Shown here in pieces: positions 1,964 to 53,832 of a DNA stretch of 64,000 nt. Within the stretch, counting starts at the first letter, position 1, and each line of letters starts with the position of its first letter. Position numbers and translations under genes: made by a program. Below the pieces are notes generated by a model that worked only from the letters and a program-made list of their open reading frames with translations, did not search any database and had not been told where the DNA came from. The DNA is from a plasmid. The stretch lies in assembly GCF_054482595.1 (NCBI RefSeq), contig NZ_JBTHVH010000004.1; one strand, written 5' to 3'.

Positions 1964-3463
1964 TTAGTTTTCAACTAACTGAACGACGACCAGCCTGCCG
2001 CCTTCCTCCTTTGACAGAACAAACTGAGCGTTATTCGTCAGTTCAATTTTTTCCCCAATGGCAATCTGTCGTTTATCCGGTAATGACATAAGCCCATTTA
2101 TGCCTTCATTTACTAACCACCACTGATCGTTATGGAAAACAAAATACCCAACTCGTTTCCTTTGTGCATCGGTTGTGCGCTCATTTGGCGCAATGAGGCG
2201 ATTCACATGCCACGCATAGATTGACTGCCCGCTCCACACCATCAACCGGTGGTCGTCAGGACGATAACTGCCTTCCTTTCGGGATGAATATAAATTTAGA
2301 ACCGGTAATTTACCCTTGTATGGCGTACCGCAGTAGGGACAAACCGGCTTTGTCTTACCTGAGAAAACGTACCATTTCTGTTCACACGCCTTGTTCTGGC
2401 AGGGCTGTATCAGATCGACTGTTTTAACCAGGGCACTTTCCCACTCATCGGCGGTCGGGCGTTTATTGGCATCGTGTAAGCCATCAATAAAGGCGCGTTC
2501 AAACAAAGGCGTCAAATAAGGGCCCATGATGGTGTAAGGAATTTTCTCCGGGTCAGCCCAGGGCAGTGAAAAGGAGGATAGCTGACTGACTTTGACTGCA
2601 TTGCTTTTGTCTGTCGGATGTTCAATGAAGAGTGCCTTCTCACCCATAGATAAGGTCTCATCACGTACTTCATCCGACATGTCATGTATTTTTCCGCCAC
2701 GTAGCGGATGACGGAAGAACAGATACATGTAGATAAGCACCGACAGCGCATGACGGTCAGTAGAAATGCTTGGCAATACGCGGTTCGGATCCTCTTTGGA
2801 AAGATGGCTGGTTTTCACCACTTCCGGAGCGATAAAATCCGGGGTGCCCACGACGTCGGGAGGATACTTTCCAGGGACAACCAGGCCGTCTACGTCAATG
2901 ATGCAGGCATGTCCCATTTCTGGATCGATAAGCACGTTTTTATAGCTTAGATCGCTGTGACAGAGACCTGCCGCATGCATCCTTCTGACGGCTCTTGTTA
3001 GCAGCAGACAGACCTTGAGATAGGTAAGCGTATTGCCTCGTTCACGTGGGTCGAGAAATTTATTCTGGTTGCTGGCGCTGGCAAACCATTTGCCTTCCTT
3101 TTCACGGCCTTTTATGCCAAGAAAATCATCGTTTTTAGAGCCGTATTTAAAGAAAAAGTAGCTTTTGTAGGTTGGAACCACGATGCCGATTTTATCCCCA
3201 TGCTCAACAACGTGGGTCGGCCAGCAAAACAGGTCCTTCCAGTATTCACCTCCGGACTGGCCAAAAATGTTTTGCCTGTAGCGTCCGGTGATCATATCAA
3301 TCCGATCCCGGGCCTGCTCGTTCTGCGGTTTATGATAAAAAGCGACGACGTATGATTTATCAGGCGAGAAGTAAACATCCTTCATCGAGCCCGAACCAAT
3401 TACCTCGTCAACATACTGGACTGTTTCGCCGTCCTTTGTTTTGCACGTAACAATATTTGCCAT
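1964..3463 (-). CDS. Ser/Thr protein kinase with C-terminal Cys-rich zinc-ribbon region (ter-linked TerY-P type)
   Basis: Kinase motifs in translation: Gly-rich 'IGSGSMKDVY', catalytic loop 'HSDLSYKNVLID', 'IIDVDG' in the DFG position, 'FIAPEV' (APE). C-terminal 'CQNKACEQKW...CPYCG'. ATG at 3463 (M19 of the track ORF) sits 26 bp after the upstream stop. Confidence 0.8.
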   Translation of the reverse strand: MANIVTCKTKDGETVQYVDEVIGSGSMKDVYFSPDKSYVVAFYHKPQNEQARDRIDMITGRYRQNIFGQSGGEYWKDLFCWPTHVVEHGDKIGIVVPTYKSYFFFKYGSKNDDFLGIKGREKEGKWFASASNQNKFLDPRERGNTLTYLKVCLLLTRAVRRMHAAGLCHSDLSYKNVLIDPEMGHACIIDVDGLVVPGKYPPDVVGTPDFIAPEVVKTSHLSKEDPNRVLPSISTDRHALSVLIYMYLFFRHPLRGGKIHDMSDEVRDETLSMGEKALFIEHPTDKSNAVKVSQLSSFSLPWADPEKIPYTIMGPYLTPLFERAFIDGLHDANKRPTADEWESALVKTVDLIQPCQNKACEQKWYVFSGKTKPVCPYCGTPYKGKLPVLNLYSSRKEGSYRPDDHRLMVWSGQSIYAWHVNRLIAPNERTTDAQRKRVGYFVFHNDQWWLVNEGINGLMSLPDKRQIAIGEKIELTNNAQFVLSKEEGGRLVVVQLVEN

Positions 3464-3488
3464 ATTGATCACCGAAGAAGCGTATCCC

Positions 3489-5129
3489 TTACCACAACAC
3501 CGCAATAGTGCGGTCATCGTGGTTCCCTGTGGAGAAAAAGTTAAGCCAGTCGCCTAACCTCTCAGGCGCAATACTGGCGTCTGTAAGGACAGGGATGAGC
3601 TCATCAAGGAGACGGGTCCATTTTTCGTCACTGCGAAGCCCGTTATCTGTCTCAAACAGAGGGTCTGATACGCCATCTGTCATGAGGATCAAGTGAGATA
3701 CATCATTCCATTTACCCACGCTGATGCGGCCGCTAAACGAGGGGTCTGCGATAATGCTCTGGTCAAGAAAGCGGGTTTGTCCTGCGTATTCTCCGCTATC
3801 GGGATTTCCCAGTATCCTGACTTTACCGGAAGGGCTGTATGCACCTATCGCACCATCACCAAGCCAGAATGCAGCCGCAAACAGCTCGTTATCAGTTCGT
3901 AGCGCTACAGTTGCCAGTAGGGTTGTTGAATAGGATTTCACAGGTTGTTCTGCACAAATGGCTTCGTTCTGGATACTGTTGACCGCGAGCGTAGCTGCCT
4001 GTTTAAAATGATGAAGCATGGCGTTTATGGTTGCCTGCTGATCGCTCCCTTCCCACGCCGTGATGTGCTGCTTTAGATGGACGCCTTTCAAACCACTGAG
4101 CTGATTGAAAAGGTAATCGCCAGCCGTTTGGACTGCAATCCGGGAGCCTTCCCGGGAATTTACCGCACTACCGGCCCCGTCTGCGACCAGCATGACAGAC
4201 CATCCTGTTTCCTGGCAGTGGTTGATATAGAAGTCGTCATCTCTGAAGCTCCCGGCATGCTCATGAGATCGTCCCCGGCGACTGGCGGCAGCAATACGTA
4301 TGTCACCCCTGACCAGGCCAGCAGCGTCCAGATGGGACTTAGGGTAGGAAGCGTCTGCTGGTGGCTCTACCACCTTCCACAGGCTTCTCGGATCGGGATT
4401 GACTATAAAAAGCTGTTTTGTTTCGCATTCGTCGTGCGAAGCGCATGACCAGAGTACTGAAAGCTCTATATCGCCGCTTTCGGTGGGTGTACCTGTCAGC
4501 AACTTATGCTCTTTGTCAAAGGTCAGGCCAATGTTCCTGGGAAAGACAACGTCCCTGACAGTAGCCTGCTGGCCCTCATCCAGAACTATAGCAACCGGCG
4601 AAGAGAAACGTTCGCCTGCGCGGGCGTTGGGAATAACTATTTTAGCTCTCGGGGGAACGGCAGGTGGCACAGCTAATCCGGCCCGCTGCTGGCCTGTCGG
4701 TATCTGCCCGGGTTTTAATACCAGGGAAGACAGGTTTTCGTCTTCCCTCTGTGCTGGTTTATCAAATTCGTAATAAGGCATCAGCTTCCAGAACGGAGGA
4801 TGAGGTTCATTTTCTGGCAGGGGTTGCAGTAATGGTGTATCGGTAGCGTCAATGCCCGGGTTATCAGCATCACTTACGACCGTTTGTTGCTGATCGGAAA
4901 GGCTGGATGCTGACGAGGGGGCGATCTCTGCGTCGTTATAACCTTCGCTAACCCGCGCAGATAAACCCTGTGCAAGGCTCTCAATCCGCTCTTTAAGCCG
5001 CATAATCTCTTCAGTAAGGGAAGGGTCGTGCGATAGAAGAAAAAGCCGCTCACCTTCTACAGGGTGGCCCAGCTCAGACAGCACTAAGCGGATAATCTTC
5101 TCTTCAAGTAAAACATTTTGCGACATCAA
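3489..5129 (-). CDS. PP2C-family Ser/Thr protein phosphatase with long N-terminal extension
   Basis: PP2C signatures 'MLVADGAGSAVNSREGS' and 'LILMTDGVSD'. Its stop overlaps the downstream kinase region; its start overlaps the upstream vWA stop (ATGA). Confidence 0.8.
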   Translation of the reverse strand: MMSQNVLLEEKIIRLVLSELGHPVEGERLFLLSHDPSLTEEIMRLKERIESLAQGLSARVSEGYNDAEIAPSSASSLSDQQQTVVSDADNPGIDATDTPLLQPLPENEPHPPFWKLMPYYEFDKPAQREDENLSSLVLKPGQIPTGQQRAGLAVPPAVPPRAKIVIPNARAGERFSSPVAIVLDEGQQATVRDVVFPRNIGLTFDKEHKLLTGTPTESGDIELSVLWSCASHDECETKQLFIVNPDPRSLWKVVEPPADASYPKSHLDAAGLVRGDIRIAAASRRGRSHEHAGSFRDDDFYINHCQETGWSVMLVADGAGSAVNSREGSRIAVQTAGDYLFNQLSGLKGVHLKQHITAWEGSDQQATINAMLHHFKQAATLAVNSIQNEAICAEQPVKSYSTTLLATVALRTDNELFAAAFWLGDGAIGAYSPSGKVRILGNPDSGEYAGQTRFLDQSIIADPSFSGRISVGKWNDVSHLILMTDGVSDPLFETDNGLRSDEKWTRLLDELIPVLTDASIAPERLGDWLNFFSTGNHDDRTIAVLW

Positions 5130-6166
5130 CCTCTCCCTCTGTTTACGTCGAAGTTAGTGTTTCCGCCATCATTGCTGAATGACAGACCTGTTTCACACCA
5201 CGGGCAGATCACGTCATCCGGGCCGTCAATGCACAGCAATTTTCCGCATGAGCACAGGGCAAACGCACTGGCATTACCGCAGTGAGGGCAACCCGGTACG
5301 CCATGCAGTTCGCTGGTGTTTACCTGCAAACCGGTAGCGGTGGCATCTGACCATGCAAAATAGTCTTCATCGATGGGATAGCATCCGGCAATATTAAAGC
5401 TGTTCAGGTTCAGGCTGAAATCGAGCCCGGAAATCCTTGCTGGTGGCCGTTCATACTTCATCAGATACGGACGACGGGTCTTGCTGCAACGGCCGGTAAG
5501 CGTAACGCAGTTTTCGTCGTACGCTTTTACTGGCTCGTCCTTGGCCAGCCGGACTATGTATTCAGTCTGGCTGAGCTCAGGTTGTTTGTCGTCTCCGACG
5601 CTGCGGCTGTGCGCCGTAACCGAGGCTGTGATCCATTTGATGAAGCGGGTAAAGTCCCCTTCCTGAGACTCGGTGAACAGCATGACATTCTCTGTCAGTT
5701 GCCGCAGGGTATTCAGGTCCGCTGACGGCCCCAGGCCAACGGCAATGAGATTCACTTTACTCGCGTAGTGATCCTTCCAGCGCTTCACTTCTGCGGTTGT
5801 GTCGTCAGTCGGACGTCCGTCGGTAAGGAGATACACGACGGGTTTCCAGTCGCCTTTAGCCTCATGAGTGGTTTTTCTGACCTGGGTATCAATTTGTACG
5901 GTCAGCTCACGCAATGCGGCCCCAAGGCTCGTACCGCCGCCAACGGGAAGGCGGGGAGGGTAGAACGAGGCAATTTCGTGAAGAGGTACAATCGTACGGG
6001 CTACACCGGCAAATGCGATTACCGAAACCCAGGCTGTTTCAAGTGCGTGTGGATCCTTTCTTAAATCTCCGATGATCATTTGCAGACCATCAGTCATTTT
6101 TTTCAGGTTTTCACCAATCATGGACTCTGAACAGTCCAGGACAAAAAACACGGGAAGGCGTCTCAT
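5126..6166 (-). CDS. vWA-domain protein (TerY-like) with C-terminal zinc ribbon
   Basis: MIDAS motif 'FFVLDCSESM' directly after the start 'MRRLPV' (ATG at 6166 with GAGGAAAA RBS); C-terminal 'CPHCGN..CSCG..CPWC'. The track ORF N-extension to 6370 is rejected. Confidence 0.75.
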   Translation of the reverse strand: MRRLPVFFVLDCSESMIGENLKKMTDGLQMIIGDLRKDPHALETAWVSVIAFAGVARTIVPLHEIASFYPPRLPVGGGTSLGAALRELTVQIDTQVRKTTHEAKGDWKPVVYLLTDGRPTDDTTAEVKRWKDHYASKVNLIAVGLGPSADLNTLRQLTENVMLFTESQEGDFTRFIKWITASVTAHSRSVGDDKQPELSQTEYIVRLAKDEPVKAYDENCVTLTGRCSKTRRPYLMKYERPPARISGLDFSLNLNSFNIAGCYPIDEDYFAWSDATATGLQVNTSELHGVPGCPHCGNASAFALCSCGKLLCIDGPDDVICPWCETGLSFSNDGGNTNFDVNRGRG

Positions 6167-6251
6167 AATTTTCCTCGTACGGCTGGTACGGCCAGCAGAA
6201 AACGTTGCTGTACAGAAAGGTGCTGCCCGGAAAGCAGCACCTTTCTGTCTG

Positions 6252-6893
6252 TCAGAGCACCAGCTGGATTTCTGGTGGAGGAGGGGGAAGGGTATCAGTT
6301 CCGTTATTGATCCCCGCGCTTGTGCTGCCGGAAGACACGCTGGCCGATACCCATTTAAAGAAACCTGCAAACGCGGTTGAATCTAGCGTCTCCAGAGACA
6401 CAACCTTATCGGTGAGCTGTTTTAAGTGCTCATGGCCTGCTTTAGGACCAACGGCGCAGGCAATGATGGATCCGAATCCCCGGCCGCGAATCGCTTTTAC
6501 CGCTTCACCGTACGCCAGGGCATCAGAAGGGGTTCCATCAGTCATCAGGAATACCAGAGGACGCCAGTCTCCTTTTGTATCACCATCTGAGCGACGTACA
6601 TCCCGTTCAACACACTGCATCAGACATTCAAGGGCAGCACCGGTGAACGTCCCGCCTGCGCTTGGCACAACGATGTCAGAAAACTGGAAGTCTTCCAGCG
6701 GCGTGAGAGGAATGAACTCACGCGCCTCATTGTCATAGGTGATAATGGAGATATGAACGCTTTCGAGGGCGTAGGGATCCTGGCGAAGAGCGCTAAGCAT
6801 CGCCTGAATTCCAACGTTAACGGAATGGATGGACTCACCGCGCATCGAGCCGGATGTGTCGATAACAAGGTAAACAGGCAGGCGGCGCATCAC
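6252..6893 (-). CDS. vWA-domain protein, TerY-like
   Basis: 'MMRRLPVYLVIDTSGSM' gives the DxSxS MIDAS motif at the N-terminus; 213 aa. Confidence 0.8.
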   Translation of the reverse strand: MMRRLPVYLVIDTSGSMRGESIHSVNVGIQAMLSALRQDPYALESVHISIITYDNEAREFIPLTPLEDFQFSDIVVPSAGGTFTGAALECLMQCVERDVRRSDGDTKGDWRPLVFLMTDGTPSDALAYGEAVKAIRGRGFGSIIACAVGPKAGHEHLKQLTDKVVSLETLDSTAFAGFFKWVSASVSSGSTSAGINNGTDTLPPPPPEIQLVL

Positions 6894-7531
6894 ATGTAAT
6901 TCCTCAGGTGCGAGACAAACGAATCTGATTCTGAAGGCTCACCAATTGCCCTGAGTTTCCAGCCTGTAGCCTCGCGTATCAGCTCGGCAAAAACCATGGA
7001 GCGCTGGCTGGCGAAGGCGGGTCCGCCAGAAAGATCGAATCGTGCCATTTCAATATTACGGGCATCTACTGCCCGGATGAAGGCATTCTGAACTTTACCA
7101 AAGTGCTGCTGGAGCTTTTCACCATTGTAGATCTGAACGATGAACACAATTTTCTCGTACTGAGCGTCAAGGGAATTCAGGCGCACAATAATTTGCTCAT
7201 CGTCACCATCACCGGCTCCGGTTCGGTTATCGCCCGTCAGCCAGATATTTCCTGACTTATGGCGAAGGCTGTTGAAAAAGATGATATCGCCATTCACAAG
7301 CGTTGGTTTACCATTTTCCACATTGCCGAGATCGGTCACCTTTCCGGCTGAATTACACAGGAAAGCGATCACATCAAGGTCGTATTCTTCTTCTTTTTTA
7401 CCAAAGATCCCGCCGAGGAAACCTTTCTTTTCCTCATTAATATCCCAACCCAGGCCGATAGTAACGGACGAGAGATCGTATTCATTTTTTTTCAGGCTTA
7501 CGCCCTGGCCTTTGCTCAGACTGACAGACAT
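6890..7531 (-). CDS. terX: TerD-family protein (TerX-like)
   Basis: TerD-family Ca-binding motif 'GDNRTGAGDGDDEQI'; paralogous by eye to terZ/terD/terE in this window; overlaps the downstream gene by 4 bp. Confidence 0.8.
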   Translation of the reverse strand: MSVSLSKGQGVSLKKNEYDLSSVTIGLGWDINEEKKGFLGGIFGKKEEEYDLDVIAFLCNSAGKVTDLGNVENGKPTLVNGDIIFFNSLRHKSGNIWLTGDNRTGAGDGDDEQIIVRLNSLDAQYEKIVFIVQIYNGEKLQQHFGKVQNAFIRAVDARNIEMARFDLSGGPAFASQRSMVFAELIREATGWKLRAIGEPSESDSFVSHLRNYM

Positions 7532-7553
7532 GACATCCCCTTAATTAATAAAA

Positions 7554-8192
7554 TTATAAGACCACGTTTACTTCTGGCGGCGGCGGTGGCAGGTCTTCAA
7601 GACCGATCACTTCTTTTTTGCTGGACTCCACTTTCTGACTGCCTACCGAAATGCTCGCACTGACCCATTTAAAGAAAGCTTTAATCGTCGAACTGTCAGC
7701 TGTATCGAGCTGAACCACGATTTCAGTGATTTCTTTGAGGACGCTGGTATCGGCATCATGCCCGGCTGCACATGCCACAACAACGCCGGTTCTGGCCGCT
7801 TTAAAGTCATTCAGGCCTTTACGCCAGTCATCATTCGGACTTCCATCCGTCATCAGGAATACAAGGGGACGCCAGTCACCTTTAGTGTCAGCCGTCGTTT
7901 TCTGTACTTCTTTGGCAATGGAGCTGGCCGTGAGGGAAAGCGCTTCGCCAAGAGAGGTGGTGCCGCTGGCTGTTAGTGCTGGCATCTGGAAACTCAGGAG
8001 GTCTGTCAGGGGGACTGCCTGTCGGGCTGAAGAATCAAAGGTGATCACTGACACGTAAGCCGTTTCGAGTGCATACGGATCCTGTTTCAGCGTGGTAAGC
8101 AGCGTCTGAACGCCATTCTTAACCGCTTCGATAGGCTCTCCGTGCATAGAGCCGGACGTGTCGAGTAGCAGATATACGGGTAAGCGTCTCAA
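7554..8192 (-). CDS. terY: vWA-domain protein TerY
   Basis: 'RRLPVYLLLDTSGSMHGE' MIDAS motif. Start assigned to TTG at 8192 preceded by AAGAAGGAA, matching the other vWA paralog N-termini, rather than the track GTG at 8273. Confidence 0.75.
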   Translation of the reverse strand: MRRLPVYLLLDTSGSMHGEPIEAVKNGVQTLLTTLKQDPYALETAYVSVITFDSSARQAVPLTDLLSFQMPALTASGTTSLGEALSLTASSIAKEVQKTTADTKGDWRPLVFLMTDGSPNDDWRKGLNDFKAARTGVVVACAAGHDADTSVLKEITEIVVQLDTADSSTIKAFFKWVSASISVGSQKVESSKKEVIGLEDLPPPPPEVNVVL

Positions 8193-8611
8193 ATGTAATT
8201 CCTTCTTAAGAGATCGGAAGAGGAGAGTAGTTTCAGGAAGAGGCCAGAGTTTGTAGATTTGATAAAACGGCACGACATCTGTCGGGTGGAGATTAAATAC
8301 TCAGAAGCGGCATTAAAGAAATAAGTTAACCACCATTGAATTACCGACATGTGAATGGCCTCTTATCAGAGAAAAAAATTCAGACCGTACTGGAATATAA
8401 ATTTCTGAAAAAAACTCCGGCAAAAATAAACTTTCTTATGTATGAAAATCATCATACATCACAGATCTGCATGAATGGAGTGTAAATCGCCCAAAGATTG
8501 ATGTGTAGCACAAGAGGATGTCAAGACACCAGGTTTTGTAGGCAGAAAGGCGCTGCTGACATTGCGGGAGGAGAATAGATCAAAACTCCGTCACGCAGAT
8601 ACAGAGGTGAA

Positions 8612-45033: not shown

Positions 45034-46594
<1,561 letters not shown>

Positions 46595-46703
46595 CTGTCA
46601 GACCAAGTTTACTCATATATACTTTAGATTGATTTAAAACTTCATTTTTAATTTAAAAGGATCTAGGTGAAGATCCTTTTTGATAATCTCATGACCAAAA
46701 TCC

Positions 46704-46741
46704 CTTAACGTGAGTTTTCGTTCCACTGAGCGTCAGACCCC
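46704..46741. repeat. Tn2/Tn3 38-bp terminal inverted repeat
   Basis: 'CTTAACGTGAGTTTTCGTTCCACTGAGCGTCAGACCCC' downstream of blaTEM. Confidence 0.85.
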
Positions 46742-47355
46742 GTATATCGCTTGCTGATTACGTGCAGCTTTCCCTTCAGGCGGGATTCATACAGCGGCCA
46801 GCCATCCGTCATCCATATCACCACGTCAAAGGGTGACAGCAGGCTCAGAAGACGCTCCAGTGTGGCCAGAGTGCGTTCACCGAAAACGTGCGCCACAACT
46901 GTCCTCCGTATCCTGTCATACGCGTAAAACAGCCAGCGCTGACGTGATTTAGCACCGACGTAGCCCCACTGTTCGTCCATTTCAGCGCAGACAATCACAT
47001 CACTGCCCGGTTGTATGCGCGAGGTTACCGACTGCGGCCTGAGTTTTTTAAGTGACGTAAAACCGTGTTGAGGCCAACGCCCATAATGCGGGCAGTTGCC
47101 CGGCATCCAACGCCATTCATGGCCATATCAATGATTTTCTGGTGCGTACCGGGTTGAGAAGCGGTGTAAGTGAACTGCAGTTGCCATGTTTTACGGCAGT
47201 GAGAGCAGAGATAGCGCTGGTGTCCGGCAGTGCTTTTGCCGTTACGCACCACCCCGTCAGTAGCTGAACAGGAGGGACAGCTGATAGAAACAGAAGCCAC
47301 TGGAGCACCTCAAAAACACCATCATACACTAAATCAGTAAGTTGGCAGCATCACC
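46742..47355 (-). mobile_element. IS1, truncated (about 614 bp; insA intact, insB 3'-truncated)
   Basis: Matches the full IS1 at 37288..38055 from an internal point to the insA-proximal end '...GTTGGCAGCATCACC'; abuts the Tn2 IR. Confidence 0.85.
47025..47300 (-). CDS. insA: IS1 InsA
   Basis: Near-identical to insA at 37725..38000. Confidence 0.85.
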
Positions 47356-47401
47356 CGATGCAGCTTTCGTCAATCATGACAGTTATGAGTTTTCCGGTTA
47401 C

Positions 47402-47725
47402 TTATCCATTTTTGCCAGCGTGTTCCGCAACATCTGTTTTACTGTTTACACAGCACTCTTCACGTAAGAATTCGATGATAGCTTCCAGTATTTCGTATTG
47501 AGAGACACACATGAGCGTTCGACTCTCCCGGTTTTGTGTGACGAGCCCTACTGATACCAGGGCTGAAATATGATGACTTAACGTTGATGAGGGAATGCCA
47601 AGCTGCTTTTGCAATTCACCTACAGGCAAACCTTGTTCTCCAGCTTTTACAAGATGTTTGAATATGAACAAACGGGTCGGGTGACCCAGCTCTTTTAGTG
47701 CTTTAGCTACTTCTTCCAGTTGCAT
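47402..47725 (-). CDS. ArsR/SmtB-family metalloregulatory transcriptional repressor
   Basis: 107 aa with HTH 'LPVGELQKQLGIPSSTLSHHISAL' and C-terminal Cys pair 'ECCVN'. Confidence 0.7.
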   Translation of the reverse strand: MQLEEVAKALKELGHPTRLFIFKHLVKAGEQGLPVGELQKQLGIPSSTLSHHISALVSVGLVTQNRESRTLMCVSQYEILEAIIEFLREECCVNSKTDVAEHAGKNG

Positions 47726-47830
47726 GTGACAACCCTCTGTCTAATGATATTTCGATAATACCAGAAATATCTTGACCAGAATTATATTTCGATTATTCTA
47801 GAAACGTAGATTTTGTCAAGAGGGTTTAGT

Positions 47831-48964
47831 ATGAATAGTTGGATTTCTATGCTGCAAGATGCCGCAGAGATGTTTTTGTTTTTGGCCGTCGAGCTATCTT
47901 TGCTGTTTATTGTCATCAGTGCCGGTGTGAGCCTGATAAGGCAAAAGGTCCCGGACCATAAAATCCAGCAATTGATAGGGGCGAAAAAAGGAAAAGGCTA
48001 CCTGCTGGCCTCGTTGTTGGGAGCCGTTACCCCTTTCTGTAGTTGCTCAACAATTCCAATGCTACGAGGGTTGTTGTCGGCGAAAGCAGGGTTTGGTCCG
48101 ACACTCACTTTTTTGTTTGTTTCACCGTTGCTTAATCCCATTATCGTGGGGTTAATGTGGGTTACCTTTGGCTGGAAAGTAACTTTGTTGTACGCGATCA
48201 TCGCTGCCGGTGTCTCAGTCCTTGCCAGTATCGTATTGGATTTACTAGGATTTGAACGTCATATTGTTGATCACAAAAACTCAGCATCAAGTGGTTGCAC
48301 CACGAAATGCGATGATTCCGAAGCTTCGGTAAAAACGTCGGCGGGTTCCAGTTGTTGCAGCACTAGCTCGACTCAATTGCCTTTAAAAACGAGTTGCTGT
48401 ACTTCATCAGCGAACCCCATAATTAACTTAAGGACGGTAAAGAACGAGCAGAACGTATCAGCGTGTTGTTCATCAATATCATCTGAACAACCAGCTGTTA
48501 GCTGTTGCAGCAGCGAGAATCTGGGCAATGTGAATCTCACAACGAATACCACCTCTGGCCCAATAAAGTTAGCTATGAAAGATGCCTTACAGCAGTTTAA
48601 GGATGTTCTGCCTTATCTTTTGTTAAGTGTATTAATAGGTTCATTTATTTATGGCTTTATCCCTTCAGAGTGGATTGCAGCTCATGCCGGAGCAGATAAT
48701 CCCTTAGCCATACCGCTGAGTGCAGTTGTTGGTATTCCGTTGTATATCCGCGCAGAGGCAGTGATACCACTTGCATCAGTGCTGATGACTAAAGGAATGG
48801 GCCTGGGGGCATTAATGGCCTTGATAATCGGTAGTGCTGGAGCGAGTTTGACAGAAGTAATACTGCTTAAATCAATGTTCAGAATGCCTATGATAGTCGC
48901 TTTTCTGACAGTAATCCTGGGTATGGCCATACTTATGGGGTATCTGACCCAATTGCTTTTTTAA
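47831..48964 (+). CDS. Permease with conserved 'TPFCSCS' motif (ArsP-like) and Cys/Ser-rich central loop
   Basis: Multi-TM protein; 'VTPFCSCSTIP' motif; divergent from the arsR-like gene; ATG at 47831 preferred over TTG at 47813. Confidence 0.6.
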   Translation: MNSWISMLQDAAEMFLFLAVELSLLFIVISAGVSLIRQKVPDHKIQQLIGAKKGKGYLLASLLGAVTPFCSCSTIPMLRGLLSAKAGFGPTLTFLFVSPLLNPIIVGLMWVTFGWKVTLLYAIIAAGVSVLASIVLDLLGFERHIVDHKNSASSGCTTKCDDSEASVKTSAGSSCCSTSSTQLPLKTSCCTSSANPIINLRTVKNEQNVSACCSSISSEQPAVSCCSSENLGNVNLTTNTTSGPIKLAMKDALQQFKDVLPYLLLSVLIGSFIYGFIPSEWIAAHAGADNPLAIPLSAVVGIPLYIRAEAVIPLASVLMTKGMGLGALMALIIGSAGASLTEVILLKSMFRMPMIVAFLTVILGMAILMGYLTQLLF

Positions 48965-48988
48965 TAATAATAGTAAGGGTCTTCTGGT

Positions 48989-49808
48989 GGCACTGTTGCA
49001 AATAGTCGGTGGTGATAAACTTATCATCCCCTTTTGCTGATGGAGCTGCACATGAACCCATTCAAAGGCCGGCATTTTCAGCGTGACATCATTCTGTGGG
49101 CCGTACGCTGGTACTGCAAATACGGCATCAGTTACCGTGAGCTGCAGGAGATGCTGGCTGAACGCGGAGTGAATGTCGATCACTCCACGATTTACCGCTG
49201 GGTTCAGCGTTATGCGCCTGAAATGGAAAAACGGCTGCGCTGGTACTGGCGTAACCCTTCCGATCTTTGCCCGTGGCACATGGATGAAACCTACGTGAAG
49301 GTCAATGGCCGCTGGGCGTATCTGTACCGGGCCGTCGACAGCCGGGGCCGCACTGTCGATTTTTATCTCTCCTCCCGTCGTAACAGCAAAGCTGCATACC
49401 GGTTTCTGGGTAAAATCCTCAACAACGTGAAGAAGTGGCAGATCCCGCGATTCATCAACACGGATAAAGCGCCCGCCTATGGTCGCGCGCTTGCTCTGCT
49501 CAAACGCGAAGGCCGGTGCCCGTCTGACGTTGAACACCGACAGATTAAGTACCGGAACAACGTGATTGAATGCGATCATGGCAAACTGAAACGGATAATC
49601 GGCGCCACGCTGGGATTTAAATCCATGAAGACGGCTTACGCCACCATCAAAGGTATTGAGGTGATGCGTGCACTACGCAAAGGCCAGGCCTCAGCATTTT
49701 ATTATGGTGATCCCCTGGGCGAAATGCGCCTGGTAAGCAGAGTTTTTGAAATGTAAGGCCTTTGAATAAGACAAAAGGCTGCCTCATCGCTAACTTTGCA
49801 ACAGTGCC
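48989..49808 (+). mobile_element. IS26 copy 5, flanked by an 8-bp target-site duplication CTTCTGGT
   Basis: Identical 8-mer at 48981..48988 and 49809..49816 directly abutting the inverted repeats; the only IS26 copy with a duplication. Confidence 0.95.
49052..49756 (+). CDS. tnpA: IS26 transposase
   Basis: Identical to the other copies. Confidence 0.95.
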   Translation: MNPFKGRHFQRDIILWAVRWYCKYGISYRELQEMLAERGVNVDHSTIYRWVQRYAPEMEKRLRWYWRNPSDLCPWHMDETYVKVNGRWAYLYRAVDSRGRTVDFYLSSRRNSKAAYRFLGKILNNVKKWQIPRFINTDKAPAYGRALALLKREGRCPSDVEHRQIKYRNNVIECDHGKLKRIIGATLGFKSMKTAYATIKGIEVMRALRKGQASAFYYGDPLGEMRLVSRVFEM

Positions 49809-49919
49809 CTTCTGGTTTCATGTTGAACAAAGAAGACCCTTTAGCTTCTGTAATCCATTTAATCAGTCTGAATGAAATAGATTATAAATTCTGCTCTGCA
49901 TACCTGCTTAACCAAAGTC

Positions 49920-50314
49920 TCATGATTCTGATTGTCGGTACAGTGCCTGAATGTGGCATATCTGGGAGGTGCTGTACCCTGTTGCATCTGCCGTTTCTTT
50001 CTTGACCTGCCGGTAGTAAAGTACCTTTTGATGCCGTTCCTGAGCGACCTGTTTTCCCTGATATTTACCCAGCGTATGTGCGAGTTCAACTCCCTGCTTT
50101 TGGCGCTGGCGGTCAATTTGCTCGACCAGCAAAATATCATTGCGGTGACTGTCCATCAGTAAGCGACCCAGTTCCGGTCGGTCAAGTTTTGTACCGCTGA
50201 TATTCTCCCGGTAGTAACTGGCTATTTTATGCCCCCGCTCCTAAACAAACTGCTCCAGCATCTCTTTTGCCCGATCGGTGAACTGATCTTCCGTCTATGC
50301 CCTTAAATAAGTGC
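49920..50314 (-). pseudogene. Serine recombinase (resolvase/invertase-like) pseudogene
   Basis: Conceptual translation 'MFISTYLRA*TEDQ...LEQFV*ERGHKIASYYRENISGTKLDRPELGRLL...TGYSTSQICHIQALYR': two in-frame TAG codons, the first at the expected catalytic-Ser position (Y.R.S.T.DQ), and a shortened central region. Confidence 0.55.
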
Positions 50315-50491
50315 TGATGAACATTTTTTCACCGCATTACCGCATTTAGGTTATTGCATTTAATCTATCGCATATAGGCTATGTCGTTCATTGTGTGCCG
50401 TCACGTTTAGATTATGGTGTCAGGGTATACCCTTATGCGATAACCATTTTTGTTAAAAATAACGCATCGAATAATTTATGAGGAAAACTAT

Positions 50492-53479
50492 ATGGCAAGG
50501 AGGCAGATTCTTTCTCTGTCGGAAAGAGAATCATTACTGGCATTACCGGACGATGAGTTAACGCTGACCCGAATGGCCTATTTCAGTGAGCATGATCTGG
50601 CGCTTATCAGTGCTCACCGTAAACCCGCCAGCCGTTTTGGTTTTGCCGTCCTTCTTTGCTATCTGAAAAATGTCGGCTTTGCCCCGGATAAAAAAATCTC
50701 TCCCTCTGATGCGCTGCTGAAGCATATCGCCAGCAGGCTAAAGCTTACCGGGGATCTCTGGCCTGCTTACCTTTCCGGCCGGGATACGACCCTGCGTGAG
50801 CATTTAACCGAACTGTACCGCTATCTTGGCGTAAAGGCGTTCACCGGCAAAATACAGCAGGACTGTATTACGCACCTGTTATCGATGGCGACGCGCACCG
50901 ATAAAGGCATTCTCCTAGCCGAAGAGTTACTTGTCTATCTCCGGCAGAACAACGTGATAATCCCCGCGATTGATGTCGTGGAGCGTACCTGTGCTGAAGT
51001 CATGGCAGGCGGCGATAAAATCGTATTTCAGACCCTGAATGCCCCGTTAACTCCGGCTCACAGGGATGCCCTGGATCATTTACTTGAGTCATCAGATAAT
51101 CAGCCTTCCAGGCTGACATGGCTTCTGCAACCGCCGGGTAAAATCAATGGTAAGAACGTGCTGCAACATCTTGATCGGCTCAGCAGCATTGAATCGCTGG
51201 CATTACCTGAAGGTATAGATCGTACCATTCACCAGAACCGGTTGCTGAAACTGGCGCGGGAAGGCCGAAAGATGAGTAGCCGGGATTTGACCCGATTTTC
51301 AGCTGCCCGGCGTCATGCGATCCTGGTGTGCGTGCTGGAAGAAGCCAGAGCCACACTGACAGACGAAGTGATTGAGCTGCATGAGCGAATGCTGAATAGT
51401 CTTTTCAGCAAAGCCAAACGAACACAGGCTGAGCGCCTTCAGCAGACCGGAAAGCTGATCCAGTCAAAACTGAGGCAGTACATCGATGTCGGTCAGGCGC
51501 TGTCTGATGCCCGTGATTCCGGTGGCGATCCCTGGCTCGCAATAGAAAACATACTCCCATGGGCTGAATTTGTCGCCAGTCTGGATGAAACACGCCATCT
51601 CGCCAGAAAAAATAATTTTGACCCGCTGCATATTATTACCGAGAAATACAGCACATTACGGAAATATGCCCCACGCATGTTGTCCGCTTTACAGTTAGTC
51701 GCAACCCCGGCAGCGCAACCTCTGGCTGATGCACTGGTTGTGATCAAGGATATGTACCGGAAGCAGTCACGTAAAGTTCCGGCGGCAGCGCCGCTTGAGT
51801 TTGTCCCTGAAAGCTGGCGCAAGGTGGTGATTACACCTGTGGGTATTGACCGGCAGTACTATGAGTTTTGTGCACTCAGCGAGCTTAAGGGGGCGTTGCG
51901 CTCCGGGGATATCTGGGTTAAAGGCTCGCGCCGCTACAAAAATTTTGATGATTACCTCATACCCGAGAAGGACTTTGACAAACTCACACCGGCACTGCCA
52001 CTGCCCGTATCTGCTGATTATCATGAGTACATTACCAGCCGTATGACCCTGCTTCAGTCCAGACTTGAAGAGGTCAATGCCATGGCTGCCCTTGGTGAAC
52101 TGCCCGATGTGGAAATATCCGACAGGGGCGTAAAAGTCTCTCCGCTGGATAACTGCGTTCCGGCGCAGGTTTCACCGCTGGCAGAGCTGGTTTACAGCAT
52201 GCTACCGCGACCTAAAATCACGGAAATTCTCGATGAGGTAAACAGCTGGACGACGTTTACCCGACATTTTTCGCATATAAAAAATGACATTACCCGTCCC
52301 GATACCCGCTTGCTCCTCACCACCATTCTTGCGGATGGCATCAATCTTGGCCTGACCAAAATGGCAGAAGCCTGCCCCGGGAGCACCAAATCATCACTCG
52401 AAGATATTCAGGCATGGTACATCCGTGACGAAACCTATTCAGCCGCTCTTGCAGAGCTGGTAAATGCGCAGGGGAAAAGACCGTTGGCGGCATTTTGGGG
52501 AGACGGAACAACGTCATCATCAGATGGACAAAATTTCAGAACCGGCAGCTCAGGCCGCTACGCAGGGCAGGTTAACCCGAAATATGGGCAAGAGCCTGGA
52601 CGTCAGTTTTATACCCATATTTCGGATCAATACAGCCCGTTTTACACCTGCATAATCAGTCGGGTCAGGGATTCAACCCATGTTCTCGATGGCTTGCTGT
52701 ACCACGAAAGCGACCTGGAAATCAGGGAACATTACACCGATACCGCTGGTTTCACCGATCATGTCTTTGCCCTGATGCATCTGTTGGGATTTGCGTTCTG
52801 TCCGCGAATCAGGGATCTCCACGACAAAAAACTGTTTATCAAAGGGAAAGCAGAGAAATACCCGGCGCTTCAGTCACTGATATCAACGACCAGCCTGAAT
52901 CTGAAAGAGATCGAAATCCACTGGCGTGAAGTGCTGCGTCTGGCAACCTCGATAAAGCAGGGAACCGTGACGGCATCCCTGATGCTGAAAAAGCTTGCCA
53001 GCTATCCCAAGCAAAACGGACTTGCCAAAGCACTGAGAGAAATTGGCCGCATTGAGCGAACCCTGTTTATGCTCGACTGGTTCCGCGACCCGGCTCTGCG
53101 TCGGCGGGTACAGGCGGGGCTGAATAAAGGCGAAGCCCGTAACGCGCTGGCGCGTGCGGTATTTATGCACCGACTGGGAGAAATCAGGGACAGAAAACCG
53201 GAAAATCAGAGCTATCGCGCCAGTGGACTGACGCTGCTGACGGCTGCCATATCCCTGTGGAATACCGTCTATATGGAAAGAGCGGTCGATGCCCTGAAGC
53301 GTAAAGGGGTGAAGATCAACGAGCAACTGCTGTCGCATTTGTCGCCGTTGGGCTGGGAACACATCAATCTGACAGGTGATTATATCTGGAAAAGCAACCG
53401 GATACCGGCTTCTGGTAAGTTTCGTCGGCTAAGACCAGCTAAAGTCGAAAGGTCAAAAAACAGCCTTAACGTACAATAA
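50492..53479 (+). CDS. tnpA: Tn3-family transposase TnpA (995 aa)
   Basis: Full-length; conserved C-terminal '...HYTDTAGFTDHVFALMHLLGF...LSPLGWEHINLTGDYIW'; ATG at 50492 with AGGAAAAC RBS. Confidence 0.85.
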   Translation: MARRQILSLSERESLLALPDDELTLTRMAYFSEHDLALISAHRKPASRFGFAVLLCYLKNVGFAPDKKISPSDALLKHIASRLKLTGDLWPAYLSGRDTTLREHLTELYRYLGVKAFTGKIQQDCITHLLSMATRTDKGILLAEELLVYLRQNNVIIPAIDVVERTCAEVMAGGDKIVFQTLNAPLTPAHRDALDHLLESSDNQPSRLTWLLQPPGKINGKNVLQHLDRLSSIESLALPEGIDRTIHQNRLLKLAREGRKMSSRDLTRFSAARRHAILVCVLEEARATLTDEVIELHERMLNSLFSKAKRTQAERLQQTGKLIQSKLRQYIDVGQALSDARDSGGDPWLAIENILPWAEFVASLDETRHLARKNNFDPLHIITEKYSTLRKYAPRMLSALQLVATPAAQPLADALVVIKDMYRKQSRKVPAAAPLEFVPESWRKVVITPVGIDRQYYEFCALSELKGALRSGDIWVKGSRRYKNFDDYLIPEKDFDKLTPALPLPVSADYHEYITSRMTLLQSRLEEVNAMAALGELPDVEISDRGVKVSPLDNCVPAQVSPLAELVYSMLPRPKITEILDEVNSWTTFTRHFSHIKNDITRPDTRLLLTTILADGINLGLTKMAEACPGSTKSSLEDIQAWYIRDETYSAALAELVNAQGKRPLAAFWGDGTTSSSDGQNFRTGSSGRYAGQVNPKYGQEPGRQFYTHISDQYSPFYTCIISRVRDSTHVLDGLLYHESDLEIREHYTDTAGFTDHVFALMHLLGFAFCPRIRDLHDKKLFIKGKAEKYPALQSLISTTSLNLKEIEIHWREVLRLATSIKQGTVTASLMLKKLASYPKQNGLAKALREIGRIERTLFMLDWFRDPALRRRVQAGLNKGEARNALARAVFMHRLGEIRDRKPENQSYRASGLTLLTAAISLWNTVYMERAVDALKRKGVKINEQLLSHLSPLGWEHINLTGDYIWKSNRIPASGKFRRLRPAKVERSKNSLNVQ

Positions 53480-53502
53480 TTTTCGATATCCAAACTGACC
53501 CC
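53465..53502. repeat. Tn3-family 38-bp terminal inverted repeat overlapping the tnpA stop
   Basis: 'CTTAACGTACAATAATTTTCGATATCCAAACTGACCCC' shares the CTTAACGT..GACCCC ends of the Tn3 IR; no partner left IR found in the window. Confidence 0.55.
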
Positions 53503-53832
53503 GAATACAAGGACAATGCCGGTACCGCCTGATTACTTCTGGCGTCGTCTACAATGTTACTCCAGGCATATGCTGCGTCGTCCGGGGTTTGTTTTGGATC
53601 TATGTCCAATGTCGGCCAGACGTGGCCCTGATGATTCTTGCCCTTTGTACAGGAAGTGATTAAGTGTACTGAGCGTTCAGAGAACATTATCTTCCTTACA
53701 TACCCATAGAACAGCTTTCTAAGAACGGTGGGCTCGGCTGAAAATTACAAATCAGCCCCTTTCACGGCATCATTTTGATTCTTCGCGTCTGCCCCAGTAA
53801 GATGACCGGTTTTCTGCATGACAGTGTTATTC

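What the first reader, a model, noticed from the sequence alone, without database searches (positions are those of the whole stretch)
47356..49816. arsR-like repressor divergent from an ArsP-like permease, later hit by IS26
The permease carries the 'TPFCSCS' motif characteristic of organoarsenical efflux permeases plus an unusual Cys/Ser-rich central loop. The 8-bp duplication around IS26 copy 5 shows this pair was originally contiguous with the Tn3-family remnant to its right, so it may be passenger cargo of that transposon. A metalloid-related determinant beside the tellurite locus is notable.
Basis: partly seen in the sequence, partly recalled or inferred. Interest (0 to 1): 0.5.

Follow-up and report, generated by a model that had tools for sequence, protein, structure and literature searches.

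The report
Plasmid-borne methylarsenite sensor and efflux pump
This is an intact two-gene module, a repressor and an export pump, that most likely senses and expels trivalent organic arsenic compounds; it is a common relative of a characterised Shewanella system, left as a fragment inside a broken transposon, so it is ordinary but under-annotated.

Summary
A 107-aa ArsR/SmtB regulator (47402-47725, minus strand) lies divergent from a 377-aa ArsP_1 permease (47831-48964). IS1 bounds the pair on the left. An 820-bp IS26 with a perfect 8-bp duplication (CTTCTGGT) bounds it on the right. With IS26 removed, the window is 99.98% identical over 5.3 kb to plasmid pVM01. There the pair lies inside a Tn3-family element with perfect 38-bp ends and a 5-bp duplication.

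The pair is an ortholog-level relative of the Shewanella putrefaciens SpArsR-arsP system:
- The regulator is 57% identical, and all three cysteines align.
- The permease is 47% identical.
- A 22-bp stretch of the operator is shared exactly.

In close relatives (R64, pUO-STmRV1, Buttiauxella, Citrobacter, E. coli and E. fergusonii chromosomes) the pair sits beside arsH or the arsRBC/arsRDABC operons.

The TPFCSCS motif and the cysteine-rich loop are traits of the whole family; this loop is only long. Closeness to the tellurite locus is incidental.

Verdict: a new member of a known kind, of low to moderate interest. Its substrate is inferred, not measured.

The parts
46736..47355 (-). Truncated IS1 (620 of 768 bp). 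Its right end forms the left boundary of the module, and its other end is cut off by the Tn2 terminal repeat (46698-46735) that follows a truncated blaTEM.
   Evidence: IS1 terminal repeat found at 47333-47355. Sequence read. The same IS1|arsR junction is present in 224 PLSDB plasmids.
47402..47725 (-). arsR ('arsR2' of R64): a 107-aa ArsR/SmtB repressor of the SpArsR (two-cysteine, AfArsR-derived) type. Cys73, Cys91 and Cys92 are invariant in orthologs.
   Evidence: family. (AfArsR 6J05, E=1.8e-11, CC aligned to Cys95/96, no Cys102). (Cys invariant in 10 loci). (57% identity to an SpArsR-like protein).
47745..47770 (.). Operator box 1: TGATATTTCGATAATACCAGAAATAT, with the dyad GATATTTC-N10-GAAATATC. 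It lies just upstream of the permease -35 hexamer and inside the arsR leader.
   Evidence: Invariant in six lineages, from Escherichia to Aeromonas. A 22-bp exact match (47751-47772) to the S. putrefaciens arsP promoter used in an SpArsR biosensor (PMC12124457, supplementary Text S3).
47786..47806 (.). Operator-like box 2 (TTTCGATTATTCTAGAAA core). It overlaps the -10 hexamers of both divergent promoters.
   Evidence: Partly conserved in the alignment. Direct repeat ATATTTCGAT shared with box 1. Promoter-like sites: plus strand TTGACC (47772)-16-TATTCT (47799); minus strand TTGACA (47819-47814)-16-AATAAT (47797-47792), 11 of 12 matches.
47831..48964 (+). arsP-type permease, 377 aa (Pfam ArsP_1).
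   Evidence: and 72/76.
48029..48049 (+). TPFCSCS motif (residues 67-73). Cys70 and Cys72 correspond to Cys65 and Cys67 of Campylobacter ArsP. In the model the motif lies at the break between two short helices.
   Evidence: alignment. (C70 in 93 of 96 and C72 in 83 of 96 family representatives). (helices 55-66 and 71-83).
48263..48559 (+). Central Cys/Ser-rich loop (residues ~145-243) with four CC pairs. It is predicted to be disordered and is hypervariable in length between alleles.
   Evidence: alleles of 337-377 aa in the aligned loci, in-frame deletions, CC pairs kept; homologs down to 322 aa. (family survey). (pLDDT below 50 for 166-235).
48975..48988 (+). Left arm (AAGGGTCTTCT) of a terminator-like hairpin downstream of the permease, split by IS26. 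It includes the left copy of the 8-bp duplication (48981-48988).
   Evidence: Sequence read. The right arm AGAAGACCCTT is at 49831-49841.
48989..49808 (+). IS26 (820 bp), a simple insertion.
   Evidence: terminal repeats and the identical 8-bp flanks CTTCTGGT. Contiguity in pVM01.
49809..49841 (+). Right copy of the 8-bp duplication (49809-49816), followed by the loop and right arm of the split hairpin.
49920..50324 (-). Degenerate tnpR (serine resolvase) of the Tn3-family element. It has two in-frame stop codons, one of them in place of the catalytic serine (YLRA*TEDQ).
   Evidence: three-frame translation. The same sequence is present in pVM01.
50492..53479 (+). Tn3-family transposase tnpA (995 aa from the ATG), intact.
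   Evidence: NF033527, 1128 bits against a cut-off of 500. (annotated as WP_000124023.1).
53465..53502 (-). 38-bp terminal inverted repeat (right end) of the Tn3-family element. The left-end copy is absent from the window.
   Evidence: a single match in the window; 0 expected by chance. (both ends plus the 5-bp duplication TACAA in pVM01).

Best explanation
The pair is a self-contained resistance module that responds to trivalent organoarsenicals.

**Proposed mechanism.**
1. Without inducer, dimers of the ArsR protein bind two dyad boxes (consensus ATTTCGATAATACCAGAAAT) in the 105-bp intergenic region. These boxes overlap the face-to-face promoters of arsR and the permease gene, so both are repressed.
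2. Methylarsenite or an aromatic As(III) compound, such as reduced roxarsone or phenylarsine oxide, binds the C-terminal Cys91-Cys92 pair in two-coordinate fashion. The repressor then leaves the DNA.
3. The permease is a secondary (proton-motive-force driven) exporter. It binds the arsenical through Cys70 and Cys72 of the TPFCSCS motif and moves it out of the cytoplasm.
4. The cytoplasmic, disordered loop with four vicinal cysteine pairs may collect substrate and pass it to that site.

**Shown here:** the homology, the cysteine correspondence, the operator conservation, the gene neighbourhoods and the mobile-element history.

**Inferred:** the inducer, the substrate, the energy coupling, the loop function and the membrane topology.

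**History.** The module was once the distal end of an ars island (arsH-arsR-arsP, as in R64). It became cargo downstream of tnpR in a Tn3-family transposon. An IS1 event removed what lay to its left. IS26 then inserted into its terminator hairpin without touching either gene.
For: **Regulator.**
- It is 57% identical over 92 aa to a 98%-identical copy of SpArsR, with Cys73/91/92 aligned to Cys83/101/102.
- The best PDB match is AfArsR 6J05. The CC pair falls on Cys95/96 and no residue corresponds to Cys102.
- SpArsR is reported to respond to MAs(III) but not As(III), because it lacks that third cysteine (PMC11868830, PMC13236881).

**Operator.**
- A 26-bp box is invariant in six lineages.
- Twenty-two bp of it are identical to the S. 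putrefaciens arsP promoter, which SpArsR controls in a working MAs(III) biosensor (PMC12124457).

**Permease.**
- Pfam ArsP_1, E=6.7e-53.
- 47% identical to the Shewanella arsP that lies divergent from SpArsR; that protein also has a loop with CC pairs.
- 33% identical to Campylobacter ArsP, with the same TPFCSCSTIP motif.
- Campylobacter jejuni ArsP exports MAs(III) and Rox(III) but not As(III), and needs its two conserved cysteines (my recollection of Chen et al. 2015; partly summarised in PMC6205960).

**Gene context in orthologs.**
- arsH lies immediately downstream of arsR in R64, pUO-STmRV1, E. coli S30 plasmid B and Buttiauxella.
- arsRDABC lies adjacent in Citrobacter.
- arsRBC lies adjacent in the E. 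fergusonii and E. coli chromosomes.

**Phenotype in a close relative.** The strain carrying pUO-STmRV1 has an identical ArsR and a pair 98.8% identical in DNA, plus arsH. Its MIC was 16-fold higher for phenylarsine oxide and 4-fold higher for roxarsone, and unchanged for arsenite and arsenate (PMC8169936).

**Structure model.**
- The core is confident (pLDDT 82.5, pTM 0.78).
- The motif lies at a helix break and the loop is disordered.
Against: - No transport, binding or induction data exist for this protein pair.
- In the pUO-STmRV1 strain the phenotype cannot be divided between ArsH and the permease, and other plasmid genes were not excluded.
- In this window the pair stands alone. tblastn finds no ArsH, ArsB, ArsC, ArsD or canonical ArsR anywhere in the 64 kb, so the context argument comes only from relatives.
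- Aeromonas orthologs also stand alone.
- The identities to the characterised proteins (33-57%) allow a shift in substrate range.
- The CxC motif is conserved across a branch of PF03773 that includes members of unknown or different function. NCBIfam's only hits are sub-threshold matches to Cu/Zn (SO_0444) and SaoE exporters.
- Identical copies in more than 200 plasmids may simply hitch-hike with IS26/IS1-bounded resistance regions.
Confidence: 0.75

Rival explanations
1. It is a soft-metal (Cu/Zn/Cd/Hg) exporter. An ArsR/SmtB metal sensor controls it, and the cysteine-rich loop acts as a metal-binding domain, as in the SO_0444 family.
For: - The best NCBIfam hit of the permease is the SO_0444 Cu/Zn efflux model (116 bits, E=1.9e-33).
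- Vicinal cysteines bind soft metals as well as arsenicals.
- ArsR/SmtB regulators often sense metals.
Against: - The score is far below the curated cut-off of 300.
- The Campylobacter ArsP control gives the same kind of sub-threshold hits (SaoE 105 bits, SO_0444 82 bits), so these hits do not discriminate.
- The regulator's closest characterised relatives are AfArsR and SpArsR, which are arsenic sensors.
- Neighbours in orthologs are ars genes, never cop, czc or mer genes.
Confidence: 0.06
2. It exports inorganic arsenite or antimonite and serves as a back-up to ArsB/Acr3. Cys73 would supply a third ligand, so that the regulator senses As(III).
For: - Cys73 is invariant in all orthologs.
- The pair is usually attached to arsRBC or arsRDABC operons.
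- The fold resembles ArsB.
Against: - SpArsR has the equivalent Cys83, yet is reported not to respond to As(III) (PMC11868830).
- Campylobacter ArsP does not transport As(III) (PMC6205960).
- The pUO-STmRV1 strain shows no rise in arsenite or arsenate MIC (PMC8169936).
- Loci that already hold ArsB would gain little from a second As(III) pump.
Confidence: 0.08
3. In this plasmid the pair is an inert passenger. It is an intact but unselected leftover of an ars island that spreads only because it lies between IS1, IS26 and a Tn3-family remnant in a multiresistance region.
For: - arsH and the rest of the island are gone.
- The transposon is defective: tnpR has two stop codons and the left end is missing.
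- The same IS1 junction occurs in 224 plasmids and the sequence is 100% identical in many of them, which looks like recent clonal spread rather than selection on the genes.
Against: - Both reading frames, both promoters and both operator boxes are intact.
- IS26 inserted 17 bp past the end of the permease ORF and spared the gene.
- A stand-alone arsR-arsP pair is a natural configuration in Aeromonas, and arsP-arsR alone is the common form in C. jejuni (PMC3774448).
- This reading concerns selection, not mechanism, and is compatible with the best explanation.
Confidence: 0.1

Closest known systems
SpArsR-arsP of Shewanella putrefaciens 200 (Sput200_1227/1226; Chen, Nadar & Rosen 2017; used as a MAs(III) biosensor in PMC12124457)
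   Same: - The arsR and arsP genes are divergent.
- The regulator is 57% identical, with all three cysteines aligned and no third cysteine after the CC pair.
- The permease is 47% identical and has CC pairs in its central loop.
- The operator box is shared, including 22 identical bp.
   Different: - The intergenic region is shorter (105 against 221 bp), with two boxes rather than three.
- The loop is longer (four CC pairs against three).
- This copy is carried on enterobacterial plasmids inside a transposon remnant, not in a chromosomal ars cluster with arsC, a second arsR, a second ArsP_1 paralog, GAPDH and ArsJ.
- It has not been tested experimentally.
ArsP of Campylobacter jejuni/coli (MAs(III)/Rox(III) efflux permease; Shen 2014, Chen 2015)
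   Same: - Same Pfam family.
- 33% identity over the full length.
- Identical TPFCSCSTIP motif, with the two functionally required cysteines.
- One CC pair in the central loop.
   Different: - The Campylobacter gene heads an arsP-arsR-arsC-acr3 operon. Its regulator is of the R773 type (ELCVCDL site) and is co-directional, not divergent.
- The protein is 315 aa, with a loop of about 48 aa, against 377 aa and about 104 aa here.
arsR2-arsH region of IncI1 plasmid R64 and of pUO-STmRV1 (Sampei 2010; Vazquez 2021, PMC8169936)
   Same: - The same gene pair, at 96% (R64) and 98.8% (pUO-STmRV1) DNA identity.
- The ArsR protein is identical to that of pUO-STmRV1.
- The host of pUO-STmRV1 is resistant to phenylarsine oxide.
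   Different: - In those plasmids arsH follows arsR and the pair borders the plasmid backbone (ProQ/FinO).
- Here IS1 has replaced arsH, and the right flank is a Tn3-family tnpR.
- The published analysis credits ArsH and does not mention the permease.
AfArsR of Acidithiobacillus ferrooxidans (PDB 6J05), the type 2 As(III) site
   Same: It is the best solved-structure match (E=1.8e-11), and the CC pair aligns with Cys95/96.
   Different: AfArsR has a third ligand, Cys102, and senses As(III). The window protein has no cysteine after Cys92.
ArsB and DASS/AbgT transporters (ion-transporter superfamily, elevator mechanism)
   Same: - There is a clear gap to the next hit at 7.6.
- The model has two repeats, each with pairs of short helices broken at conserved motifs.
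   Different: - Sequence identity is only 8-12%, and there is no sequence-level match to any PDB chain.
- The protein is much smaller (about 290 core residues).
- The similarity rests on a predicted model, not a solved structure.

Membership tests
ArsP organoarsenical efflux permease (Pfam ArsP_1 PF03773; ArsP 'cluster 2' of Yang et al. 2015) | Full-length match to the ArsP_1 profile | tested here: met
   E=6.7e-53, model positions 4-293 of 294.
ArsP organoarsenical efflux permease (Pfam ArsP_1 PF03773; ArsP 'cluster 2' of Yang et al. 2015) | Membrane-embedded C(S/T)C motif preceded by tPF, equivalent to Cys65/Cys67 of Campylobacter ArsP | tested here: met
   TPFCSCS is at residues 67-73 and aligns residue for residue with the C. 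coli ArsP motif at 62-68. The motif definition comes from PMC4435449. Caveat: the motif is nearly invariant in 96 family representatives, so it marks the family and not a substrate.
ArsP organoarsenical efflux permease (Pfam ArsP_1 PF03773; ArsP 'cluster 2' of Yang et al. 2015) | Full-length similarity to an ArsP with experimental support | tested here: met
   33% identity to Campylobacter ArsP, E=1e-61. 47% identity to the Shewanella arsP controlled by SpArsR, E=5e-112. Only about 31% identity to the thioredoxin-linked paralog in the same Shewanella locus.
ArsP organoarsenical efflux permease (Pfam ArsP_1 PF03773; ArsP 'cluster 2' of Yang et al. 2015) | Encoded in or next to an ars operon (this window) | tested here: not met
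   tblastn finds no ArsH, ArsB, ArsC, ArsD or canonical ArsR in the 64-kb window. IS1 has replaced the neighbouring DNA.
ArsP organoarsenical efflux permease (Pfam ArsP_1 PF03773; ArsP 'cluster 2' of Yang et al. 2015) | Encoded in or next to an ars operon (orthologs at 72-99% DNA identity) | tested here: met
   arsH is adjacent in R64, pUO-STmRV1, E. coli S30 plasmid B and Buttiauxella. arsRDABC is adjacent in Citrobacter. arsRBC is adjacent in the E. fergusonii and E. coli chromosomes. The exception is Aeromonas, where the pair stands alone.
ArsP organoarsenical efflux permease (Pfam ArsP_1 PF03773; ArsP 'cluster 2' of Yang et al. 2015) | Exports MAs(III)/Rox(III) but not As(III) or pentavalent forms | not testable with these tools
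   Only indirect evidence: the pUO-STmRV1 host has a 16-fold higher phenylarsine oxide MIC and an unchanged arsenite MIC, but it also carries arsH (PMC8169936).
SpArsR-type MAs(III)-selective ArsR repressor | ArsR/SmtB winged-helix fold | tested here: met
   NF033788, 63 bits against a cut-off of 55. Pfam HTH_20 and HTH_5.
SpArsR-type MAs(III)-selective ArsR repressor | C-terminal vicinal cysteine pair at the position of SpArsR Cys101/102 (AfArsR Cys95/96) | tested here: met
   Cys91/92 align to AfArsR Cys95/96 and to Cys101/102 of the SpArsR-like protein P0285. They are invariant in 10 orthologous loci.
SpArsR-type MAs(III)-selective ArsR repressor | No third cysteine equivalent to AfArsR Cys102 | tested here: met
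   There is no Cys after residue 92 in the window protein or in any ortholog.
SpArsR-type MAs(III)-selective ArsR repressor | Controls a divergent arsP promoter through a conserved operator | tested here: met
   The divergent arrangement is present, and 22 bp of the invariant box are identical to the S. putrefaciens arsP promoter. Binding itself was not tested.
SpArsR-type MAs(III)-selective ArsR repressor | Derepressed by MAs(III) and not by As(III) | not testable with these tools
   This needs a reporter or binding assay.
R773-type (type 1) As(III)-sensing ArsR | Cys32-x-Cys34-x-x-Cys37 site (ELCVCDL) in the DNA-binding helix | tested here: not met
   The corresponding stretch reads GLPVGELQKQL and has no cysteine.
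SO_0444 family Cu/Zn efflux transporter (NF033936) | Score above the curated equivalog cut-off | tested here: not met
   116 bits against a cut-off of 300. Campylobacter ArsP scores 82 bits on the same model.
SaoE efflux transporter (NF040736) | Score above the curated equivalog cut-off | tested here: not met
   88 bits against a cut-off of 325.
Passenger gene of a Tn3-family transposon | Lies between 38-bp terminal inverted repeats flanked by a 5-bp target duplication, with tnpA and tnpR | tested here: met
   This is met in pVM01: perfect 38-bp repeats, TACAA on both sides, and the pair downstream of tnpR. In the window only the right repeat survives, and tnpR carries two stop codons, so here it is a remnant. 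The internal IS1 has no duplication, so the left part has been rearranged.
Simple IS26 insertion | 820-bp element with 14-bp terminal repeats and an 8-bp target duplication | tested here: met
   48989-49808, with CTTCTGGT on both sides. The uninterrupted target exists in pVM01.

The most novel reading that the evidence does not exclude
The long, disordered, length-variable loop with vicinal cysteine pairs is a built-in arsenical-harvesting (chaperone-like) domain. It would set the capacity or substrate range of this permease, for example extending it to aromatic arsenicals such as reduced roxarsone. On this reading, the stand-alone arsR-arsP module on multiresistance plasmids of food-animal E. 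coli and Salmonella is kept by organoarsenical feed additives, and so co-selects antibiotic resistance.
Probability: 0.2. Interest if true: 0.5.

Novelty: new member of a known kind. Interest (0 to 1): 0.25.

Why it matters
- **Annotation.** The gene is annotated only as 'permease' in hundreds of plasmids. At least one published plasmid analysis overlooked it and credited organoarsenical resistance to ArsH alone.
- **Prevalence.** A match to the pair occurs in 648 of 72,556 PLSDB plasmids, and 2386 of 5426 complete E. coli genomes have a match.
- **Practical consequence.** Recognising it as a likely methylarsenite and aromatic-arsenical efflux module gives a testable link between arsenical feed additives or herbicides and the persistence of multiresistance plasmids in poultry and pig isolates.
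- **Possible tool.** It offers a second, enterobacterial sensor and promoter pair for methylarsenite biosensors.
- **Mechanistic lead.** The predicted fold resembles ArsB and DASS elevator transporters, which is a modest lead for a family with no solved structure.

None of this changes the current understanding of arsenic resistance.

Tried and rejected
- **NCBIfam scan of the permease.** It gave only sub-threshold SO_0444 and SaoE hits. I first read this as a hint of a metal exporter. I dropped that reading after Campylobacter ArsP, used as a control, gave the same pattern.
- **PADLOC scan.** Nothing for the permease, and only generic winged-helix hits for the regulator. No defence role.
- **PDB sequence search with the permease.** No hit, even at E=1.
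- **Primary papers.** The ArsP and SpArsR papers (PMC4681449, PMC5653410) are not held. I used reviews, later papers and a biosensor supplement instead.
- **Paper searches.** One search with match='anywhere' returned only noise. One call failed on a bad term.
- **Names of family representatives.** All were generic ('permease', 'YraQ') and uninformative.
- **Link between cargo regions.** I tested whether the SulP/USP/thioredoxin/permease/sigma-70 cargo beside the same transposon end in a Citrobacter plasmid (L007) is related to the R64 ars island. There is no nucleotide similarity, so a larger ancestral arsenic transposon remains speculation.
- **Pre-IS1 form of the allele.** I looked for a form of the ≥99% allele that predates the IS1 event. 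None was seen: 224 plasmids share the IS1 junction.
- **Link with the tellurite locus.** Rejected. The ter genes are IncHI2 backbone, and the distance varies between sister plasmids.
- **SpArsR sequence.** The PDF text had lost two bases, so I rebuilt the protein by hand. The rebuilt sequence has cysteines at 83, 101 and 102, as published, and a database protein (P0285) is 98% identical to it.

Full report
**1. What is in the sequence**

The region 47356-49816 holds two intact divergent genes followed by an IS26.

- The minus-strand ORF at 47402-47725 encodes a 107-aa ArsR/SmtB regulator.
- The plus-strand ORF encodes a 377-aa permease, counted from the ATG at 47831. This ATG has a ribosome-binding site, and all orthologs start at the same residue.
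- The permease matches Pfam ArsP_1 over the whole model (E=6.7e-53).
- TPFCSCS lies at residues 67-73.
- A loop of about 100 residues (145-243) contains 10 cysteines, eight of them in four CC pairs, and is rich in serine and threonine.

**2. The mobile-element frame**

IS26 occupies 48989-49808. It is the only one of the five IS26 copies in the window with matching flanks: CTTCTGGT at 48981-48988 and at 49809-49816. Removing IS26 and one flank copy gives a sequence that aligns without gaps to plasmid pVM01 at 99.98% over 5319 bp.

IS26 landed in a terminator-like hairpin just past the permease stop codon (AAGGGTCTTCT ... AGAAGACCCTT). It left the gene intact.

To the right lie the remains of a Tn3-family element:
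- a decayed resolvase gene (49920-50324, minus strand) with two in-frame stops, one of them in place of the catalytic serine;
- an intact Tn3-family transposase gene at 50492-53479;
- a 38-bp terminal repeat at 53465-53502.

In pVM01 the same element is complete at both ends. It has perfect 38-bp repeats and a 5-bp duplication, TACAA. The arsR-permease pair sits downstream of tnpR, where bla sits in Tn3. The cargo idea is therefore supported.

There is a caveat. An IS1 inside the element abuts the arsR side and has no 9-bp duplication, so DNA to its left has been lost or exchanged. The 307 bp between the left repeat and IS1 continue, in a Citrobacter plasmid, into a different cargo that begins with a SulP transporter and a universal stress protein.

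In the window the IS1 is itself cut down to 620 bp by the end of Tn2, and the left repeat of the Tn3-family element is absent.

**3. Where else the pair occurs**

- Megablast finds the 1.6-kb pair in 648 PLSDB plasmids, mostly from E. coli and Salmonella and many from chickens, pigs and ducks.
- 224 of these plasmids share the IS1 junction.
- Alleles at 83-99% identity lie in ordinary arsenic-resistance islands.
  - In the classical IncI1 plasmid R64, in pUO-STmRV1, in E. coli S30 plasmid B and in a Buttiauxella plasmid, arsH follows arsR directly and arsA, arsD, arsB and arsC are nearby.
  - In Citrobacter the pair follows arsRDABC.
  - In E. fergusonii and in many E. coli chromosomes it follows arsRBC, between gor and slp.
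- 2386 of 5426 complete E. coli genomes have a match, with 2249 chromosomal places.
- In Aeromonas the pair stands alone.
- In the window no other ars gene is present. Comparison with pUO-STmRV1 shows that IS1 cut in the spacer between arsR and arsH.

**4. The regulator**

Its best match among solved structures is AfArsR (6J05, E=1.8e-11). Cys91-Cys92 fall exactly on AfArsR Cys95-Cys96, and nothing corresponds to the third ligand, Cys102. That pattern defines SpArsR of Shewanella putrefaciens, which is reported to respond to methylarsenite but not to arsenite (PMC11868830, PMC13236881).

I recovered the SpArsR coding sequence and the native arsP promoter from the supplement of a biosensor paper (PMC12124457). 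I then found a 98%-identical natural protein and its locus.

The window regulator is 57% identical to that protein over 92 residues. Cys73/91/92 align with Cys83/101/102. These three cysteines are invariant in ten orthologous loci.

**5. The operator**

The 105-bp intergenic region contains a 26-bp box, TGATATTTCGATAATACCAGAAATAT (47745-47770), with a dyad GATATTTC-N10-GAAATATC. The box is invariant from Escherichia to Aeromonas, while the surrounding DNA varies. Twenty-two bases of it are identical to the Shewanella arsP promoter that SpArsR controls.

A second, related box (47786-47806) overlaps the -10 hexamers of two face-to-face promoter-like sites. This fits repression of both genes by one protein.

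**6. The permease**

- A primer from a Campylobacter survey (PMC3774448) retrieved the arsP-arsR-arsC-acr3 operon of C. coli.
- The window permease is 33% identical to that ArsP over its full length. It has the same TPFCSCSTIP motif, so Cys70/72 correspond to Cys65/67.
- It is 47% identical to the Shewanella arsP that is divergent from SpArsR. It is only about 31% identical to the thioredoxin-linked paralog in the same locus.
- In 96 family representatives the motif is nearly invariant. It therefore marks the family, not a particular substrate.
- The loop varies from about 20 to 129 residues across those representatives. 38 of the 96 have at least one CC pair, Campylobacter ArsP has one, and the Shewanella protein has three.
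- Natural alleles of the plasmid gene differ by in-frame deletions in the loop but keep CC pairs.

**7. Structure model**

An AlphaFold2 model is confident for the membrane core (pLDDT 82.5, pTM 0.78) and disordered for the loop. The motif lies at a break between two short helices (55-66 and 71-83). A matching break occurs in the second half (293-304 and 308-320).

I infer an elevator-type fold in which the two short-helix pairs are re-entrant hairpins. I counted lysine and arginine residues by hand in the loops between the helices. On that count, this topology places the positively charged first loop and the cysteine-rich loop in the cytoplasm. This is an inference from a model, not a result.

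**8. Function and rivals**

The best-supported reading is a methylarsenite and aromatic As(III) sensor coupled to an efflux pump.

A published phenotype fits. The strain carrying pUO-STmRV1 (arsH, an identical ArsR and the permease) has a 16-fold higher MIC for phenylarsine oxide and a 4-fold higher MIC for roxarsone. Its arsenite and arsenate MICs are unchanged. The authors credited ArsH and did not mention the permease (PMC8169936).

- A soft-metal exporter is unlikely, because the NCBIfam hits are sub-threshold and the Campylobacter control reproduces them.
- An arsenite pump is unlikely, given what is reported for SpArsR and Campylobacter ArsP and the unchanged arsenite MIC.
- Whether the module is under selection in this plasmid or merely hitch-hikes cannot be decided from sequence.

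**9. Verdict**

- The pair is a plasmid-borne member of a characterised kind of system. It is very common and is annotated only as 'permease'.
- The motif and the loop are family traits.
- The neighbourhood with the tellurite genes is incidental: ter is IncHI2 backbone at window 1-25000 and lies about 48 kb away in a sister plasmid.
- Interest is low to moderate.

Noticed in passing
window 45857-46735: blaTEM is truncated at its 5' end by the IS26 copy ending at 45853. The ORF starts at residue ~43 of TEM-1 ([11 protein letters not shown]...). In the sister plasmid pNDM-M121 the gene is intact. The Tn2 terminal repeat (46698-46735) directly abuts an internal point of IS1.
   Followed up: partly
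window 49920-50324 (minus strand): The resolvase gene of the Tn3-family element has a TAG in place of the catalytic serine codon (YLRA*TEDQ) and a second in-frame stop. The same defects are present in pVM01, where the element still has perfect ends and a target duplication.
   Followed up: partly
window 27462-49808 (five IS26 copies): All five IS26 copies have the same orientation. Only the copy at 48989-49808 has matching 8-bp flanks, so the other four were probably placed by cointegrate or recombination events.
   Followed up: no
L018 (E. coli MLI107 chromosome) 4993-6397; E. coli genome search: 2386 of 5426 complete E. coli genomes have a match to the pair, with 2249 places on chromosomes. 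In the example inspected, an ortholog (about 84% DNA identity, 333-aa permease, 98-aa ArsR) follows arsRBC between gor and slp. It is annotated only as 'permease'.
   Followed up: partly
L007 (Citrobacter plasmid pRHBSTW-00535_2) 6896-13255: The left-end 276 bp of the same Tn3-family element continue into a different cargo: SulP transporter, universal stress protein, thioredoxin-family protein, another ArsP_1-type permease and a sigma-70 factor. An IS110-family element is inserted in the terminal repeat.
   Followed up: partly
[not shown]
   Followed up: partly
L019 (Shewanella-like contig) 2374-8496: The locus of the SpArsR-like regulator holds two ArsP_1 paralogs. One is divergent from the regulator. 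The other is paired with a small thioredoxin and follows arsC and a second arsR. GAPDH and an MFS (ArsJ-like) gene lie downstream.
   Followed up: no
window 53503-53512 versus L001 7914-7925: The sequence just outside the right end of the Tn3-family element in the window (GAATACAAGG) resembles the sequence outside the LEFT end in pVM01 (GAATACAA). I did not establish whether this reflects a preferred target, an inversion or chance.
   Followed up: no
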